Shown: positions 23,781-36,803 of the stretch, piece by piece | Layout of the letters: the number at the start of each line of letters is the position of its first letter | Position numbering within the stretch: position 1 is the first letter of the stretch | Sequence record: HM035025 | Origin: Shigella phage Shfl2 | Strand: one strand, 5' to 3' | Length of the DNA stretch: 64,000 nucleotides | Made by a program: the position numbers and the translations under genes | Notes under the pieces: model-generated | The model's input: the letters and a program-made list of their open reading frames with translations, nothing else | What the model was told of the DNA's origin: nothing | The model's database searches: none

Positions 23781-23822
23781 ATATACCCCTTTAGTTAGAT
23801 AAATCTATTTATAACTTTTGCA

Positions 23823-24404
23823 CTAACCGAGCTTTTTAGTTAATTCATTCCAATGTTTTCTACACAAAGAAACATAAATTTCATCACCAATACAGATTTG
23901 ATTACCTTCTTTAACTGGTGTTCCATCTTCCATTAATCGAGCTGTCATAATCGCTTTTTTACCGCAATGACAAACTGCCTTCAGTTCAATAAGTTTATCT
24001 GCAATCGCCAAAAGTTCTTTAGAACCTTCAAACAATTTTCCAGCGAAATCAGTCCTTAATCCATAAGCCATAACAGGAACATTATATGTATCAACAATTC
24101 GACTCAATTGATGCACCTGTTCAGTTTTTAAAAATTGGGCTTCATCTACAAATACGCAATGAATATCTTTTTGTGCTTCAGCCCATTTATAGAACTCGAA
24201 AATATCCATATCATCTGTAATAATATTCGCTTCCTGTTTAATTCCAATGCGAGAAACGACTTCACAGACAGAATCGCGAGTATCAATAGCAGGCTTAAGA
24301 ACTAATACACTCATTCCACGTTCTTTATAATTATGCGCAGCAGTTAAAAGAGAAGCAGATTTTCCAGCATTCATTGCTGCATAAGTAAAAATTAAACTCG
24401 CCAT
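23823..24404 (-). CDS. tk: Thymidine kinase
   Basis: 193 aa; P-loop AAMNAGKS; C-terminal zinc-binding cysteines; matches T4 Tk. Confidence 0.92.
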   Translation of the reverse strand: MASLIFTYAAMNAGKSASLLTAAHNYKERGMSVLVLKPAIDTRDSVCEVVSRIGIKQEANIITDDMDIFEFYKWAEAQKDIHCVFVDEAQFLKTEQVHQLSRIVDTYNVPVMAYGLRTDFAGKLFEGSKELLAIADKLIELKAVCHCGKKAIMTARLMEDGTPVKEGNQICIGDEIYVSLCRKHWNELTKKLG

Positions 24405-24413
24405 ATCACCTTC

Positions 24414-24599
24414 TTAAAGCGTATTCACATAAGCTATTAATTCGTTTTCTTTCTTATCAAACCGATCAGCAAATTCTTCTTGCTGTTCGGGAGATAGCGG
24501 GCCGTATTCATCATAAAAGGTGTTTGCTTCTGTATGCTCATCTAGAAGTTCATGGATAAGCTCAAACAATTTATCTTTTTGTTCTTTACTCAGACTCAT
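24414..24599 (-). CDS. Hypothetical acidic protein (61 aa)
   Basis: ORF track. Confidence 0.45.
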   Translation of the reverse strand: MSLSKEQKDKLFELIHELLDEHTEANTFYDEYGPLSPEQQEEFADRFDKKENELIAYVNTL

Positions 24600-24769
24600 A
24601 TATTAATTTCCAGGAGTTTTAAAATAATTCGCTTTTGCTTAAATATTTCCATAGTTAAATGACCAGTATCTTTTTGACCGATTCCAATGGCAAAACCTTT
24701 ATTAACAGCGAGTTCAATTAAATTATCAAGCTCACGTAACACTTCGTATTGTAACTCAAAACTATTCAT
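24596..24769 (-). CDS. Small hypothetical protein (~57 aa, below ORF-track threshold)
   Basis: ATGA overlaps at both ends with neighbouring genes; MNSFELQYEVLRELDNLIEL... Confidence 0.35.
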   Translation of the reverse strand: MNSFELQYEVLRELDNLIELAVNKGFAIGIGQKDTGHLTMEIFKQKRIILKLLEINI

Positions 24770-24993
24770 TTTGGTTTACCTTCTTTAACGAAATCAGGAT
24801 AAGGATAAAATCCTGAATAAAATCCTTCACCTTTATGATTGATGCATCCTTTATTAGAACAATAGCACCAATAATCGAAATCACAAGCCATTTCATCGTT
24901 GCATAAAGCAAAAACAACCGGCCACTTACACTTTTCACAATGAGCATTTTTAAGAATACTAGTTTGGCTCATAACCATGTAACCTTTAAACAA
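24766..24993 (-). CDS. Cysteine-rich small protein (75 aa)
   Basis: Several CxxC/CxC motifs suggesting metal binding. Confidence 0.5.
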   Translation of the reverse strand: MFKGYMVMSQTSILKNAHCEKCKWPVVFALCNDEMACDFDYWCYCSNKGCINHKGEGFYSGFYPYPDFVKEGKPK

Positions 24994-25181
24994 TATTCTT
25001 CTACGTGCTGTTTACGACCTTTCTTATCAATAAAGGTATATTCAACGAATGTTCCAATATAGTCTTTATCTACATCATGAGGACTATTAATTGGGCATTT
25101 AGTACGGCAAATGCGTTCCCATTGACGAATAATTTCTGCTTTGTTTTTAGGATCAAACGGATGTGGGTAATGTACTTTCAT
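24969..25181 (-). CDS. Hypothetical protein (70 aa)
   Basis: ORF track. Confidence 0.45.
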   Translation of the reverse strand: MKVHYPHPFDPKNKAEIIRQWERICRTKCPINSPHDVDKDYIGTFVEYTFIDKKGRKQHVEEYCLKVTWL

Positions 25182-25632
25182 AATCCACCACTATTAAATC
25201 AATATCAGGAGTAAACATGTCGATTAATTTAGAAACCTTATCCCAATCACCGCCAGCAATACCACAACCTATGCGTGGAATGTAAATTACTGGTTTAAAC
25301 AAAAGGGTCTCTGCCTGTAGATTTAATTCTATCATGCAGTTTACTAAAGCACCATAATCAAGATTAGGACCCGGTTCGTATTGCGTATACAGGTTATAGC
25401 ACATACTAAATCCTGTAGGATTATGTTTAAAAACAATAGACATATCGCCTAATTTATCACGAGAACCATATTCAGTAGTGGTTTTATCTATTTCTAAAAT
25501 TTTAGGATAGGCCCTTGCTAATTGACCCGCTACACCTGAACCCATAGTATGAAAACAATTGCACCCGTGCGCAATAATATTACCTTGAAGAAATAGGGCG
25601 ACAATATCGCCCTTGATATATTTTACAATCAT
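25153..25632 (-). CDS. Macrodomain protein (predicted ADP-ribose binding / hydrolase), 159 aa
   Basis: N-terminal GDIVALFLQGNIIAHGCNCFHTMGSGVAGQLA and C-terminal IYIPRIGCGIAGGDW resemble macro-domain signature blocks. Confidence 0.55.
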   Translation of the reverse strand: MIVKYIKGDIVALFLQGNIIAHGCNCFHTMGSGVAGQLARAYPKILEIDKTTTEYGSRDKLGDMSIVFKHNPTGFSMCYNLYTQYEPGPNLDYGALVNCMIELNLQAETLLFKPVIYIPRIGCGIAGGDWDKVSKLIDMFTPDIDLIVVDYESTLPTSV

Positions 25633-25976
25633 CTAGTACTCAATCCTCGATTATAAGAATCTACTAAACGGTCAACCATTGAATGACAAGCGGCTTTATC
25701 TTTCTCCTCCGCAACTGAACATTCTAAGGTATTCCACTTTTTAGCATATCGTTTTAACAATGTATCATTTTTATATCTACTTGATTTATCTCTTTCTCCG
25801 TCTTTATATGCATATATTAATTTCTGCGCAAATTCAGCTTGGCATGCTTTATTTTTCCCACAATAATCTGCCGCAGTGCGGTTTACATATTCTCTAATTT
25901 CAGTATATGATGTATCTGCTGACGCATAAGCAGAAAATGAAATTAATCCTATACATAAAACCAAAATTTTAGTCAT
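25629..25976 (-). CDS. Small secreted protein with N-terminal signal peptide (115 aa); occupies the position of T4 vs
   Basis: Signal peptide MTKILVLCIGLISFSAYASA; four Cys; identity with T4 vs not verifiable here. Confidence 0.5.
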   Translation of the reverse strand: MTKILVLCIGLISFSAYASADTSYTEIREYVNRTAADYCGKNKACQAEFAQKLIYAYKDGERDKSSRYKNDTLLKRYAKKWNTLECSVAEEKDKAACHSMVDRLVDSYNRGLSTR

Positions 25977-26514
25977 TTACTATTTCCAAAAGTTTATTAT
26001 TTTTAAGGTAGTTAGCCTTTTCTAGGACTTCAGAAGCATATTTAGAACCTGCTTTAACATTCCATCCCGAATTATAAGAGGATATTGCTTTTCTTATATC
26101 GCCCTTATGTATATTTAACCAATAAGAAAGTTCAATGTACGCCCAGGAAGCTGAATTGGATCGTTTATTCAACATTCTTTTTATTTCAGCATCGGTCATA
26201 TTATAACCAAGTTCCTTAACTCTTGCTCGCATAGTAGGCAAATAATTTTGGAACATTCCATAAGCGTGATGCTTTGGTTTAGATTTTAAATTAACTCCGC
26301 CAGAGCTTTCTTGCCATAAAATAGCAGCCATTATATGACCTAATCCGCTCTTGTGGATATTTTTATGTGTTTTATATTTTCCATCCTTAGAAAATTGTTC
26401 CCCGAATTGATACGCGTAACGCATGTTATCGAGTTGGACATTACTGAAAGTATGCTCGGAGCTATGTGCCATCATTGAAATGGCCAATAGACCAGCGAGT
26501 AGTGCTTTTCTCAT
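25969..26514 (-). CDS. Secreted lytic transglycosylase-like protein (SLT domain), 181 aa
   Basis: Signal peptide; SLT-like motifs QESSG, GMFQ, SYNSGWN. Confidence 0.55.
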   Translation of the reverse strand: MRKALLAGLLAISMMAHSSEHTFSNVQLDNMRYAYQFGEQFSKDGKYKTHKNIHKSGLGHIMAAILWQESSGGVNLKSKPKHHAYGMFQNYLPTMRARVKELGYNMTDAEIKRMLNKRSNSASWAYIELSYWLNIHKGDIRKAISSYNSGWNVKAGSKYASEVLEKANYLKNNKLLEIVND

Positions 26515-26521
26515 GCTTACC

Positions 26522-26983
26522 TCATTGAGTTTTAATTACTGCTTTAGAAGCCTTTCCTGGTAAACGACGACTATTGATAATTGCCATCCTGCACTGAAGT
26601 GACGGGTCTTTGAACTTCGCATTAGGTTTACAAACTGTAAATCCAAGCCAAAGATTTCCATCTGTGATTTCTAAACGTCCAGGACGATATTCAACCCCAT
26701 CAATAAAATCCTCGTCAATGTCAGGACGCGGAGGCATACTTAGGAATTCATTAACTTCTAAAACATGGTCTTTTATTTTATGGAATAATTCAAAAACGTA
26801 TGTCTCATCAATCTCCCGTTGAATTGCGCGATCAAGAAGATGTTGAGAATATTTTAGATGAAACGATGAGACTCCTGCTGCTTTTGATGCCTCACGAATC
26901 TCATTGTTGATTTGACGAAACTCCGACTCAAAGTGACGACGAAGCTTATTTCGACGGATAAAAACTTCTGTGTTGATAGTCAT
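26522..26983 (-). CDS. regB: RegB site-specific endoribonuclease
   Basis: 153 aa; matches T4 RegB as recalled; preceded by an early promoter. Confidence 0.8.
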   Translation of the reverse strand: MTINTEVFIRRNKLRRHFESEFRQINNEIREASKAAGVSSFHLKYSQHLLDRAIQREIDETYVFELFHKIKDHVLEVNEFLSMPPRPDIDEDFIDGVEYRPGRLEITDGNLWLGFTVCKPNAKFKDPSLQCRMAIINSRRLPGKASKAVIKTQ

Positions 26984-27010: not shown

Positions 27011-27040
27011 ATTATACCACAGTCAAGAGGAAAAGTAAAC
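27011..27040 (-). promoter_or_regulatory. Sigma70-type early promoter (-35 GTTTAC, extended -10 TGTGGTATAAT) upstream of regB
   Basis: Plus-strand attataccaca ... gtaaac. Confidence 0.6.
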
Positions 27041-35980: not shown

Positions 35981-36057
35981 TGGTCGAGACAGAAGGATTC
36001 TAACCTTCAACCCACGGATTAGAAGTCCGTTGCTCTATACAATTGAGCTATGCCTCG
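35981..36057 (-). tRNA. tRNA-Arg (anticodon UCU), CCA encoded
   Basis: Manual fold: acceptor CGAGGCA/TGTCTCG, anticodon loop CTTCTAA, T-loop GGTTAGAATCC. Confidence 0.8.
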
Positions 36058-36061
36058 TATT

Positions 36062-36136
36062 TGGCGGACGTGATAGGATTCGAACCTATAACCAATCGCT
36101 TAACAGGCGATCGCTCTGCCATTGAGCTACACATCC
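36062..36136 (-). tRNA. tRNA-Asn (anticodon GUU), CCA encoded
   Basis: Manual fold: acceptor GGATGTG/CACGTCC, anticodon stem ATCGC/GCGAT, loop CTGTTAA, T-loop TTCGAAT. Confidence 0.7.
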
Positions 36137-36140
36137 AAAT

Positions 36141-36227
36141 TGGTGGGGAGTGATGGAGTCGAACCACCCGAGTCGCAATGACAATGGATTTACAGTCCAC
36201 ACCGCTACCTCTACGGGATAACTCCCC
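36141..36227 (-). tRNA. tRNA-Tyr (anticodon GUA), class II with long variable arm, CCA encoded
   Basis: Manual fold: acceptor GGGGAGT/ACTCCCC, anticodon loop CTGTAAA, long variable arm resembling bacterial tRNA-Tyr. Confidence 0.65.
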
Positions 36228-36236
36228 AAATTAATT

Positions 36237-36311
36237 TGGTGGCCCTGGGTGGAATTGAACCACCATCTGGCGATTATGAGTCGCTTGCTTGAACCTTCCA
36301 GCTACAGGGCC
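36237..36311 (-). tRNA. tRNA-Ile/Met (anticodon CAU), CCA encoded
   Basis: Manual fold: acceptor GGCCCTG/CAGGGCC, anticodon loop CTCATAA. Confidence 0.75.
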
Positions 36312-36312
36312 T

Positions 36313-36388
36313 TGGTGCTGATTGACGGAATCGAACCGCCGACGTCCTCATTACAAGTGAGGTGCTCTACCTACTGAGCTAAATCAGC
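36313..36388 (-). tRNA. tRNA-Thr (anticodon UGU), CCA encoded
   Basis: Manual fold: acceptor GCTGATT/AATCAGC, anticodon loop CTTGTAA, T-loop GGTTCGATTCC. Confidence 0.8.
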
Positions 36389-36390
36389 AA

Positions 36391-36477
36391 CGGAGGCGAT
36401 AGGATTTGAACCTATGAGTCGCCGGAGCGACTGCCGGTTTTCAAGACCGGTGCATTAAACCACTCTGCCACGCCTCC
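36391..36477 (-). tRNA. tRNA-Ser (anticodon UGA), class II, CCA not encoded
   Basis: Manual fold: acceptor GGAGGCG/CGCCTCC, anticodon loop CTTGAAA, long variable arm. Confidence 0.8.
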
Positions 36478-36479
36478 AG

Positions 36480-36553
36480 TCTCCGTGGCAGGATTTGAAC
36501 CTACGACATTCTGCTCCCAAAGCAGACGCTCTACCAAACTGAGCTACACGGAG
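36480..36553 (-). tRNA. tRNA-Pro (anticodon UGG), CCA not encoded
   Basis: Manual fold: acceptor CTCCGTG/CACGGAG, anticodon loop TTTGGGA. Confidence 0.8.
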
Positions 36554-36563
36554 TAAATTAAAT

Positions 36564-36637
<74 letters not shown>

Positions 36638-36642
36638 AAATT

Positions 36643-36729
36643 TGGTGCGAGAAGTGGGACTCGAACCCACAAGGAAATCATTCCGCAGCATTTTAAGTGC
36701 TGTGCCTTTACCAATTTGGCCATTCTCGC
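36643..36729 (-). tRNA. tRNA-Leu (anticodon UAA), class II, CCA encoded
   Basis: Manual fold: acceptor GCGAGAA/TTCTCGC, anticodon loop CTTAAAA, long variable arm. Confidence 0.8.
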
Positions 36730-36730
36730 G

Positions 36731-36803
36731 CTGGGAATAAAGGACTCGAACCTTTGCATCCTGGAATCAAAATCCAGTGCCTTACCAACTTGGCTAATTC
36801 CCA
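36731..36803 (-). tRNA. tRNA-Gln (anticodon UUG)
   Basis: Manual fold: acceptor TGGGAAT/ATTCCCA, anticodon loop TTTTGAT; first tRNA of the transcript. Confidence 0.8.

What the first reader, a model, noticed from the sequence alone, without database searches (positions are those of the whole stretch)
25153..25632. Macrodomain-like protein among early genes
The 159-aa product has signature blocks resembling macro domains (GDIVALFLQGNIIAHGCNCFHTMGSGVAGQLA and IYIPRIGCGIAGGDW). T4-type phages encode ADP-ribosyltransferases, and hosts deploy ADP-ribosylating or NAD-derived-signal defences, so a phage macrodomain could reverse ADP-ribosylation or degrade ADP-ribose-derived signals.
Basis: partly seen in the sequence, partly recalled or inferred. 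Interest (0 to 1): 0.5.

Follow-up and report, generated by a model that had tools for sequence, protein, structure and literature searches.

The report
T4-type phage macrodomain Tk.4 (AdfM)
This gene is a real macrodomain: it is the counterpart, in a T4-like phage, of T4 gene tk.4 (adfM), which was recently shown to protect T4 from the bacterial DarTG2 defence that ADP-ribosylates phage DNA, so the finding is correct but already known.

Summary

The window comes from a T4-like phage (Tequatrovirus). The gene sits between vs and tk.3, so it is the positional ortholog of T4 tk.4, at 58% amino-acid identity. A 2025 preprint showed that deleting T4 tk.4 makes T4 sensitive to DarTG2, and renamed the gene adfM.

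Two things are added here:
- **Active site.** The family lacks the catalytic lysine of DarG and TARG1. It has an invariant Gln84 instead (259 of 259 relatives), with Asn25 and a PRIGCGIAGGxW loop. This matches the active site of SCO6735, a lysine-independent thymidine-ADP-ribose DNA hydrolase, but without SCO6735's long mobile loop.
- **Divergent allele.** tk.4 is only 42-82% identical to T4 at the DNA level, while its flanks are 95-100% identical.

Most likely function: removal of DarT2's ADP-ribose from thymidines in phage single-stranded DNA. The biochemistry of this family has not been tested.

The parts
25153..25632 (-). tk.4 / adfM ortholog: 159-aa single-domain macrodomain protein (17.6 kDa, pI about 5.0)
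25525..25569 (-). Residues 22-36, HGCNCFHTMGSGVAG: first ADP-ribose-binding loop, with invariant His22, Asn25 and Gly33
   Evidence: Invariant in A1 and in 252-259 of 259 relatives. Asn25 aligns with DarG N22 and PhiKZ AdfM N23, and by residue numbering and motif with SCO6735 N27. His22 aligns with TARG1 and BT1257 His, and by numbering with SCO6735 H24.
25381..25395 (-). Residues 80-84, NLYTQ: strand ending in invariant Gln84, at the position of the catalytic Lys of TARG1 (K84), DarG (K80) and PhiKZ AdfM (K78)
   Evidence: HMMER profile alignment to TARG1, MAFFT alignment A2 and hmmalign. Gln in 259 of 259 relatives. SCO6735 has an essential Gln85 at this position (PMC9411070).
25243..25278 (-). 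Residues 119-130, PRIGCGIAGGDW: second (phosphate-binding) loop. Ala126 replaces TARG1 Asp125.
   Evidence: Same motif in BT1257 (PRIGCGLAGGKW) and SCO6735 (PRIGCGLAGGTW). TARG1 has PRIGCGLDRLQW and DarG has PPLGxGNGGLxW.
25131..25592 (-). Divergent allele segment: 42-82% DNA identity to T4, inside flanks that are 93-100% identical
   Evidence: 60-nt identity profile of the window against T4 AF158101. By segment, protein identity is 84% for residues 1-43 and 21% for residues 132-155.
25629..25632 (-). ATGA overlap: the vs stop codon (TGA) overlaps the tk.4 start codon (ATG), so translational coupling is likely
   Evidence: Sequence read directly. The predicted RNA structure pairs the ribosome-binding site and AUG with the end of vs, z = -2.7.
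25153..25181 (-). 29-nt overlap between the 3' end of tk.4 and the start of tk.3 (24969..25181)
   Evidence: ORF coordinates. In T4 the overlap is 4 nt.
27011..27039 (-). Promoter-like site (TTTACT-17-TATAAT, with TG) in front of regB. Candidate promoter for the regB-vs.1-vs-tk.4 run.
   Evidence: Consensus scan only. Promoter-like sites in the region are not more frequent than in shuffles, so this is weak.

Best explanation
The gene is the ortholog of T4 tk.4/adfM in a T4-like phage. It encodes a stand-alone, antitoxin-like macrodomain made early in infection, which protects replicating phage DNA from the host DarTG2 toxin-antitoxin defence. DarT2 attaches ADP-ribose to thymidine N3 in single-stranded TNTC-type motifs and so blocks replication. 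The inferred mechanism is that the macrodomain binds the ADP-ribose between its two glycine-rich loops (residues 30-36 and 122-128) and hydrolyses the ribose-thymine bond, restoring normal DNA. It cannot use the lysine chemistry of DarG or TARG1, because that lysine is an invariant glutamine (Gln84). The most likely chemistry is that proposed for SCO6735: Gln84, held by Asn25, positions the substrate, and a bound water starts the cleavage. What is shown: macrodomain identity, orthology and active-site composition (shown here), and the DarTG2 phenotype of the T4 allele (published genetics). What is inferred: enzymatic removal of thymidine-ADP-ribose by this family, and the equivalence of this 58%-identical allele.
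For: Macrodomain by sequence and fold. Same locus as T4 tk.4, 58% identity, E 8e-71. T4 tk.4 was the single hit of a transposon screen on a DarTG2 host, and a clean knockout is DarTG2-sensitive (10.1101/2025.11.20.689424). Tevenvirinae are reported to be DarTG2-resistant by an unknown factor other than AdfA or AdfN (PMC11257639). Every invariant family residue is present in the window allele. The nearest solved relatives belong to the ALC1-like class, whose unifying activity is thymidine-ADP-ribose removal (PMC9411070). SCO6735 has the same Gln and Asn and the same PRIGCGxAGGxW loop. It cleaves DarT-made thymidine-ADP-ribose and rescues E. coli from DarT, and its Q85A/E mutants are inactive. 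An unrelated phage macrodomain, PhiKZ gp104, removes DarT2 marks in vitro, so this strategy exists in phages (PMC13309987).
Against: No biochemical data exist for any member of the Tk.4 family. The preprint offers hydrolysis only as 'likely'. The window allele has not been tested itself and is 42% different from T4's. The catalytic Lys of DarG and TARG1 is absent. So is the long lysine-bearing mobile loop credited with SCO6735's high DNA activity. The protein is acidic overall (pI about 5), which is not typical of a DNA-binding enzyme. SCO6735 also blocks DarT by direct interaction, so protection need not be catalytic.
Confidence: 0.72

Rival explanations
1. The protein counters DarT2 mainly by binding and blocking the toxin (interaction-inhibition) rather than by erasing the DNA mark. 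The divergent allele classes would then track different DarT2 variants.
For: A catalytically dead SCO6735 (Q85A) still inhibits DarT in vitro, more strongly than DarG or TARG1 (PMC9411070). tk.4 is a divergent allele inside near-identical flanks, and most divergence lies outside the active-site loops: residues 132-155 are 21% identical and residues 44-79 are 44% identical. That pattern is what one expects of a surface engaged in a protein-protein arms race.
Against: All ADP-ribose-binding and active-site residues are invariant across 259 relatives, which argues for catalysis or at least ligand binding. The protein has no counterpart of DarG's C-terminal DarT-binding domain (159 aa, one domain). 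The DNA divergence is near saturation, so it looks like old alleles exchanged by recombination rather than recent positive selection.
Confidence: 0.12
2. The protein is a Poa1p-like small-molecule enzyme (ADP-ribose-1''-phosphate phosphatase or O-acetyl-ADP-ribose deacetylase) that clears NAD-derived by-products. This is what the database labels 'phosphatase' and 'Poa1p-like' imply.
For: PHROG 335 is labelled 'phosphatase', and several GenBank records use 'phosphatase' or 'Poa1p-like family protein'. Yeast Poa1p is among the best sequence and structure hits. The Poa1p structures include H23A and S30A mutants. His22 is invariant in the Tk.4 family. From my recollection of the Poa1p sequence, it corresponds to Poa1p H23.
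Against: The single-sequence match to Poa1p covers only residues 3-78. The residue aligned by recollection with Poa1p S30 (Thr29) varies within the family. The T4 knockout phenotype is specific to DarTG2. The labels come from homology transfer, not from assays.
Confidence: 0.07
3. The protein erases ADP-ribose from other targets: uracil-ADP-ribose on RNA, protein Asp/Glu-ADP-ribose, or marks made by the phage's own Alt, ModA and ModB enzymes.
For: SCO6735 and TARG1 also remove uracil-linked ADP-ribose from RNA (PMC13036486), and SCO6735 removes it from PARP1. T4-type phages encode ADP-ribosyltransferases (established knowledge).
Against: Alt, ModA and ModB modify arginine, a linkage that ALC1-like macrodomains are not known to cleave (established knowledge, not tested here). 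No uracil-ADP-ribosylating defence is known in E. coli. SCO6735 is inactive on 2'-OH RNA ADP-ribosylation and on guanine-linked ADP-ribose. Any such activity would probably be secondary to the anti-DarT2 role.
Confidence: 0.06
4. The protein degrades or sequesters ADP-ribose-derived immune signals such as those of Thoeris.
Against: The closest relatives are all hydrolases of macromolecule-linked ADP-ribose. The literature retrieved here gave no genetic or biochemical hint of this role.
Confidence: 0.02

Closest known systems
T4 Tk.4 = AdfM (anti-DarT factor Macrodomain; AAD42667; bioRxiv 10.1101/2025.11.20.689424)
   Same: Same locus (vs - tk.4 - tk.3), same size and single-domain architecture, and all invariant residues shared, including His22, Asn25 and Gln84.
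   Different: Only 58% amino-acid identity, and 42-82% DNA identity inside flanks that are 95-100% identical. The phosphate loop reads GCGIAGGDW here and GAGIGKGNW in T4. The C-terminus is four residues longer. The window allele has not been tested itself.
SCO6735 (Streptomyces coelicolor; PDB 5E3B) and BT1257 (PDB 2FG1/2AFC)
   Different: About 25-29% identity. The 'mobile loop' after the Gln is short, as in DarG and TARG1. It lacks the five extra residues and the Lys89 and Lys93/94 that define the SCO6735 subclass. The protein is acidic rather than basic, and is phage-encoded.
DarG macrodomain (antitoxin of DarTG2; PDB 5M3I, 5M31/5M3E, 7OMU)
   Different: Gln replaces the catalytic Lys80. 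There is no C-terminal DarT-binding domain and no neighbouring darT gene. About 20% identity. The NCBIfam DarG model scores 28.9 bits against a cut-off of 250.
PhiKZ gp104 'AdfM' (chimallivirus; PMC13309987)
   Same: A phage-encoded stand-alone macrodomain that counters DarTG2. The Asn is conserved (N23).
   Different: PhiKZ gp104 is a true DarG-like, Lys-type enzyme (K78), matching DarG at E 9e-25. It is only about 20% identical to the window protein and is imported into a phage nucleus. The two proteins share a name but belong to different subclasses, so they look like independent acquisitions.
Human TARG1/OARD1 (PDB 4J5R/4J5S)
   Same: Top Foldseek hit. The profile match is E 6e-18 over the whole domain. 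Shares the PRIGCG motif and the His of loop 1.
   Different: The Lys84/Asp125 catalytic dyad is replaced by Gln84/Ala126, and TARG1 has Ser where this family has Asn25.
Yeast Poa1p (ADP-ribose-1''-phosphate phosphatase; PDB 6LFQ-6LFU)
   Different: The C-terminal half diverges, so the single-sequence match covers only residues 3-78. Poa1p acts on a small-molecule substrate from tRNA splicing. This similarity is the source of the probably misleading 'phosphatase' labels.

Membership tests
Macro domain superfamily (Pfam PF01661) | Profile match above the curated gathering score | tested here: met
   33.8 bits against a cut-off of 22, residues 22-136 on profile positions 2-117 of 118.
Macro domain superfamily (Pfam PF01661) | Three-layer alpha/beta/alpha fold with a mixed central sheet | tested here: met
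Macro domain superfamily (Pfam PF01661) | Binds ADP-ribose | not testable with these tools
   Both glycine-rich loops are intact and invariant. Binding itself needs ITC, thermal shift or a co-crystal.
ALC1-like (TARG1/DarG/SCO6735/Poa1p) macrodomain class | Closest relatives by sequence and structure belong to this class rather than to the MacroD, PARG or viral-Mac1 classes | tested here: met
T4 Tk.4 / AdfM orthologous group | Same genomic position (between vs and tk.3) in a Tequatrovirus genome | tested here: met
   Order is tk ... tk.3 - tk.4 - vs - vs.1 - regB in both. The flanks are 95-100% identical to T4.
T4 Tk.4 / AdfM orthologous group | Full-length sequence homology to T4 Tk.4 | tested here: met
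   58% identity over 155 aa with no gaps, E 8e-71.
T4 Tk.4 / AdfM orthologous group | Required for phage growth on DarTG2-expressing hosts | not testable with these tools
   Shown only for the T4 allele. Testing the window allele needs an allele swap or knockout.
DarG antitoxin (DarTG2) | Catalytic lysine (K80) | tested here: not met
   Gln84 occupies this position, in all 259 relatives examined.
DarG antitoxin (DarTG2) | C-terminal DarT-binding domain, and full-length match to the DarG equivalog model | tested here: not met
   159 aa with a single domain. NCBIfam NF048014 scores 28.9 bits against a cut-off of 250 and covers only positions 2-142 of 338. The PADLOC DarG model matches positions 3-144 of 329.
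DarG antitoxin (DarTG2) | Encoded next to a darT toxin gene | tested here: not met
   The neighbours are vs and tk.3. A bacterial relative is also an orphan.
TARG1 | Lys84/Asp125 catalytic dyad | tested here: not met
   Gln84 and Ala126 at the aligned positions.
SCO6735/BT1257 subclass | Gln at the Lys position, stabilised by a conserved Asn | tested here: met
   Gln84 and Asn25 are invariant. BT1257 Gln aligns directly. SCO6735 Gln85 and Asn27 are taken from PMC9411070.
SCO6735/BT1257 subclass | Mobile loop five residues longer than in DarG or TARG1, carrying Lys89 and Lys93/94 | tested here: not met
   In alignment A2, BT1257 has a six-residue insertion after the Gln that the Tk.4 family, TARG1 and DarG all lack. 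The loop here is QYEPGPN, with no lysine. The definition comes from PMC9411070.
SCO6735/BT1257 subclass | Hydrolysis of thymidine-linked ADP-ribose on single-stranded DNA | not testable with these tools
   Needs a gel-shift or AMP-Glo assay on DarT2-modified oligonucleotides.
Poa1p (ADP-ribose-1''-phosphate phosphatase) | Residues mutated in the Poa1p structures (H23, S30) are conserved, and homology is full-length | tested here: inconclusive

The most novel reading that the evidence does not exclude
The Tk.4 family may be a third, so far undescribed, catalytic subtype of ALC1-like macrodomain. It would combine the SCO6735-type Gln/Asn active site with a short DarG/TARG1-type mobile loop and an acidic surface, and would have been recruited by phages independently of the Lys-type PhiKZ AdfM. 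Its anciently diverged alleles, which recombine into otherwise near-identical T4-like genomes, might differ in which DarT2 variants (or which ADP-ribosylated bases, T versus U) they neutralise. That difference could arise partly through direct contact with the toxin.
Probability: 0.25. Interest if true: 0.5.

Novelty: already known. Interest (0 to 1): 0.25.

Why it matters
The gene illustrates how T-even phages carry 'orphan antitoxins' against DNA-ADP-ribosylating defences: AdfN against DarT1 and AdfM/Tk.4 against DarT2. That function is now published for T4, so this finding mainly confirms a correct reading from raw sequence.

The remaining value is mechanistic and evolutionary. The T4-type AdfM is not a DarG copy, because it lacks DarG's catalytic lysine. 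It therefore bears on the open question of how lysine-less ALC1-like macrodomains cleave base-linked ADP-ribose. Its allele-cassette behaviour offers a natural panel of variants for testing specificity against different DarT2 toxins. The analysis also flags two practical points. The common database labels 'phosphatase' and 'Poa1p-like' are probably misleading. The name AdfM now covers two non-orthologous proteins.

Tried and rejected
- **Plus-strand reading of the interval.** Rejected because it is full of stop codons.
- **Filing the protein as DarG.** Rejected. The NCBIfam and PADLOC DarG models match only weakly and only over the macro half. The catalytic Lys, the C-terminal domain and the toxin neighbour are all missing.
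- **hhalign and hmmalign against PhiKZ gp104.** Both placed the FPTK motif two residues out of register, in a low-confidence stretch. I relied instead on the high-confidence HMMER alignment to TARG1, on hmmalign, which puts TARG1 K84 and Mtb DarG K80 on Gln84, and on the MAFFT alignment A2.
- **Attempt to obtain the SCO6735 alignment around Gln85 from the PDB search.** Only the C-terminal loop was returned. The Gln85/Asn27 equivalence with SCO6735 therefore rests on the paper's structure-based statement plus BT1257, which the paper reports as 54% identical to SCO6735 and which aligns directly.
- **Genomic context of bacterial and metagenomic relatives**. No DarT or other toxin was found nearby, so context does not add a function.
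- **Promoter and terminator scan**. Promoter-like sites are no more frequent than in shuffled sequence. It is used only as weak context.
- **Net charge as a proxy for DNA binding**. The protein is acidic, which is uninformative or mildly contrary.
- **Thoeris or signal degradation, and reversal of Alt/Mod marks.** Nothing in the retrieved data supports either.
- **Rfam and tRNA scans of the window**. They found only the tRNA cluster, which is unrelated to this gene.

Full report
**Observation.** The interval 25153-25632 holds an ATG-started ORF of 159 codons on the minus strand. The plus strand of the same interval is full of stop codons. The vs stop codon overlaps the tk.4 start codon (ATGA at 25629-25632). 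The last 29 nt of the ORF overlap the start of the next gene.

**Where the window comes from.** Megablast of 24400-26600 finds 745 phage records, almost all Escherichia or Shigella T4-like phages, with the best about 98% identical. In the T4 record AF158101 the same gene order is annotated as tk, tk.1, tk.2, tk.3, tk.4, vs, vs.1, regB. The ORF is therefore the positional ortholog of T4 tk.4 (155 aa, 'conserved hypothetical protein'). The two proteins align end to end without gaps, but at only 58% identity (E 8e-71).

**Is it a macrodomain?** Yes.
- Pfam Macro (PF01661) scores 33.8 bits against a gathering score of 22 and covers almost the whole profile.
- PHROG 335 matches at 3e-71.
- By single sequence, the best solved relatives are BT1257 (1e-10), yeast Poa1p, SCO6735, M. 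tuberculosis DarG (2.6e-5) and human TARG1.
- A profile of 40 relatives raises these to 3e-19 (BT1257), 6e-18 (TARG1), 1e-15 (SCO6735) and 1e-11 (DarG).
- An AlphaFold2 model built on that alignment has mean pLDDT 94 and pTM 0.88.

The protein therefore belongs to the ALC1-like (TARG1/DarG/SCO6735/Poa1p) class of macrodomains.

**What is already known.** A bioRxiv preprint of November 2025 (HIDEN-SEQ, 10.1101/2025.11.20.689424) screened a T4 transposon library on a DarTG2-expressing host.
- tk.4 was the single significant hit.
- A clean knockout was DarTG2-sensitive.
- The authors noted the similarity to DarG and renamed the gene adfM, for anti-DarT factor Macrodomain.
- They stated that enzymatic removal of ADP-ribose from DNA 'seems likely'.

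This filled a gap flagged earlier. T-even phages were reported to be DarTG2-resistant even without AdfA and AdfN, so another factor had to exist (PMC11257639). I found nothing supporting the Thoeris or signal-degradation alternative.

**Active-site anatomy (added here).** In TARG1 the catalytic residues are Lys84 and Asp125. In DarG the catalytic residue is Lys80 (PMC9411070).
- The HMMER profile alignment places TARG1 Lys84 opposite the family's 'q' in NLYTQ, and TARG1 Asp125 opposite Ala126.
- A MAFFT alignment with T4 Tk.4, seven other relatives, BT1257, TARG1, both DarG macrodomains and PhiKZ gp104 gives the same register: NLYTQ / NMIGQ / YLITK / NFPTK / MFPTK.
- hmmalign of all 259 family members retrieved shows Gln at this position in 259 of 259. 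Asn25 is present in all members aligned at that column, and His22 in 252.

SCO6735 has exactly this arrangement. Its Gln85 replaces the lysine, and Q85A and Q85E mutants are inactive. Asn27 locks Gln85, and N27S is nearly inactive. The enzyme efficiently removes DarT-made thymidine-ADP-ribose and rescues E. coli from DarT. A water-initiated mechanism has been proposed for it. The phosphate loop PRIGCG[IL]AGGxW is shared by the window protein, BT1257 and SCO6735. TARG1 has PRIGCGLDRLQW and DarG has PPLGxGNGGLxW.

One defining feature of the SCO6735 subclass is absent. The 'mobile loop' after the Gln is as short as in DarG and TARG1, and carries no lysine. The protein is also acidic overall (pI about 5.0). 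The T4-type AdfM is therefore neither a DarG copy nor a typical SCO6735-like enzyme. It combines the Gln-type active site with a short loop.

By contrast, the chimallivirus protein also named AdfM (PhiKZ gp104) is a true DarG-like, Lys-type enzyme. It has N23 and K78, matches DarG at E 9e-25, and has demonstrated activity on DarT2-modified DNA (PMC13309987). It is only about 20% identical to the window protein. The two 'AdfM' proteins look like independent recruitments from different subclasses.

**Allele structure (added here).** A 60-nt identity profile against T4 gives:

| Region (window coordinates) | DNA identity to T4 |
|---|---|
| tk (23819-24358) | 95-100% |
| most of tk.3 (25011-25130) | 93-98% |
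| vs, vs.1 and regB (25593-26972) | 95-100% |
| inside tk.4 (25131-25592) | 42-82% |
| tk.1/tk.2 region (24419-24950) | 16-55%, essentially unalignable |

At protein level the N-terminal 43 residues are 84% identical. Residues 44-79 are 44% identical and residues 132-155 are only 21% identical, while the active-site segments are conserved.

In the phage collection the window-type allele (90% identity or more) occurs in 317 records. The T4-type allele (90% or more) occurs in 224, and a further 159 records sit at 80-90% to T4. The window allele is thus common, and it is usually annotated as 'hypothetical', 'macro domain protein' or 'phosphatase'. The pattern indicates old, diverged alleles exchanged by recombination between otherwise nearly identical genomes. 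That is typical of counter-defence loci, but it does not by itself demonstrate functional divergence.

**Wider family and context.**
- The exhaustive profile search finds 18,296 cluster representatives at E<=1e-3 and 1,098 at E<=1e-30.
- Homologs occur in 2,863 phage records across Escherichia, Klebsiella, Salmonella, Pseudomonas, Vibrio and other phages.
- A chromosomal bacterial relative (Pelagimonas) is an orphan with no toxin nearby.
- A metagenomic relative lies on a phage contig about 4 kb from an Acb5 anti-CBASS gene.

**Mechanism and rivals.** The best-supported explanation (confidence about 0.7) is an orphan antitoxin-like enzyme that removes DarT2's ADP-ribose from thymidines in phage single-stranded DNA, using Gln84/Asn25-dependent, lysine-independent chemistry.
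- **Shown here:** macrodomain identity, class, orthology and active-site composition.
- **Shown in the literature:** the DarTG2 phenotype of the T4 allele, and the activity of the Gln-type relative SCO6735.
- **Inferred:** catalysis by this family, and the equivalence of this allele.

The rivals are:
- toxin blockade by direct binding, since SCO6735 Q85A still inhibits DarT;
- a Poa1p-like small-molecule role, which is the source of the 'phosphatase' labels;
- erasure of other linkages, for example the uracil-ADP-ribose that SCO6735 and TARG1 cleave;
- degradation of immune signals.

**Verdict.** The gene is the tk.4/adfM ortholog of a T4-like phage, so its kind and function are already known. 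Interest is low to moderate (0.25). What remains open is the biochemistry of a lysine-less, short-loop ALC1-like macrodomain, and the meaning of its divergent alleles.

Noticed in passing
window 24419-24950 (minus strand): The tk.1/tk.2 region is essentially unalignable with T4 (16-55% identity with many gaps), although tk and tk.3 on either side are 93-100% identical. It holds three small ORFs, including a Cys-rich 75-aa ORF at 24766-24993 (phrog_2306, unknown function). That ORF has no counterpart in T4's tk.1-tk.2-tk.3 layout.
   Followed up: partly
window 25595-25613 (minus strand): A perfect 8-bp hairpin, AGGGCGATATTGTCGCCCT, lies inside codons 7-13 of tk.4, followed by a weak T-rich tail. 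The identical sequence is present in T4 tk.4. It could be a processing or attenuation element, or just a by-product of the conserved KGDIVAL codons.
   Followed up: partly
window 25570-25670 (minus strand): The predicted RNA structure pairs the tk.4 ribosome-binding site and AUG with the 3' end of the vs coding region (MFE -26.1 kcal/mol, z = -2.7 against shuffles). Together with the ATGA stop/start overlap, this suggests that tk.4 translation is coupled to vs translation.
   Followed up: partly
window 35981-36803 (minus strand): A cluster of 10 tRNA genes (Arg, Asn, Tyr, Met/Ile-CAT, Thr, Ser, Pro, Gly, Leu, Gln). From my own knowledge T4 has eight, so Asn and Tyr appear to be extra in this phage.
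   Followed up: no
window 25969-26514 (minus strand), vs.1: The 181-aa Vs.1 protein has a signal-peptide-like N-terminus and weak matches to lytic tail protein and endolysin PHROGs over residues 56-158. This hints at a lytic transglycosylase-like domain in a gene annotated only as a conserved hypothetical.
   Followed up: no
window 25629-25976 (minus strand), vs: In the HIDEN-SEQ preprint, the neighbouring vs gene (valyl-tRNA synthetase modifier) was the most strongly depleted T4 gene in minimal M9 glucose medium compared with LB. The gene translationally coupled to tk.4 is therefore itself conditionally important.
   Followed up: no
literature: bioRxiv 10.1101/2025.11.20.689424 and PMC13309987: The name AdfM has been given independently to two non-orthologous phage macrodomains. 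T4 Tk.4 is Gln-type, and PhiKZ gp104 is Lys-type and DarG-like. They are about 20% identical to each other.
   Followed up: yes
L004 541-888 and 5001-5447: On a 110-kb metagenomic phage contig, a Tk.4-family macrodomain lies about 4 kb from an Acb5 (anti-CBASS) gene and near a PolyA_pol-family nucleotidyltransferase. This may be an anti-defence gene neighbourhood.
   Followed up: no
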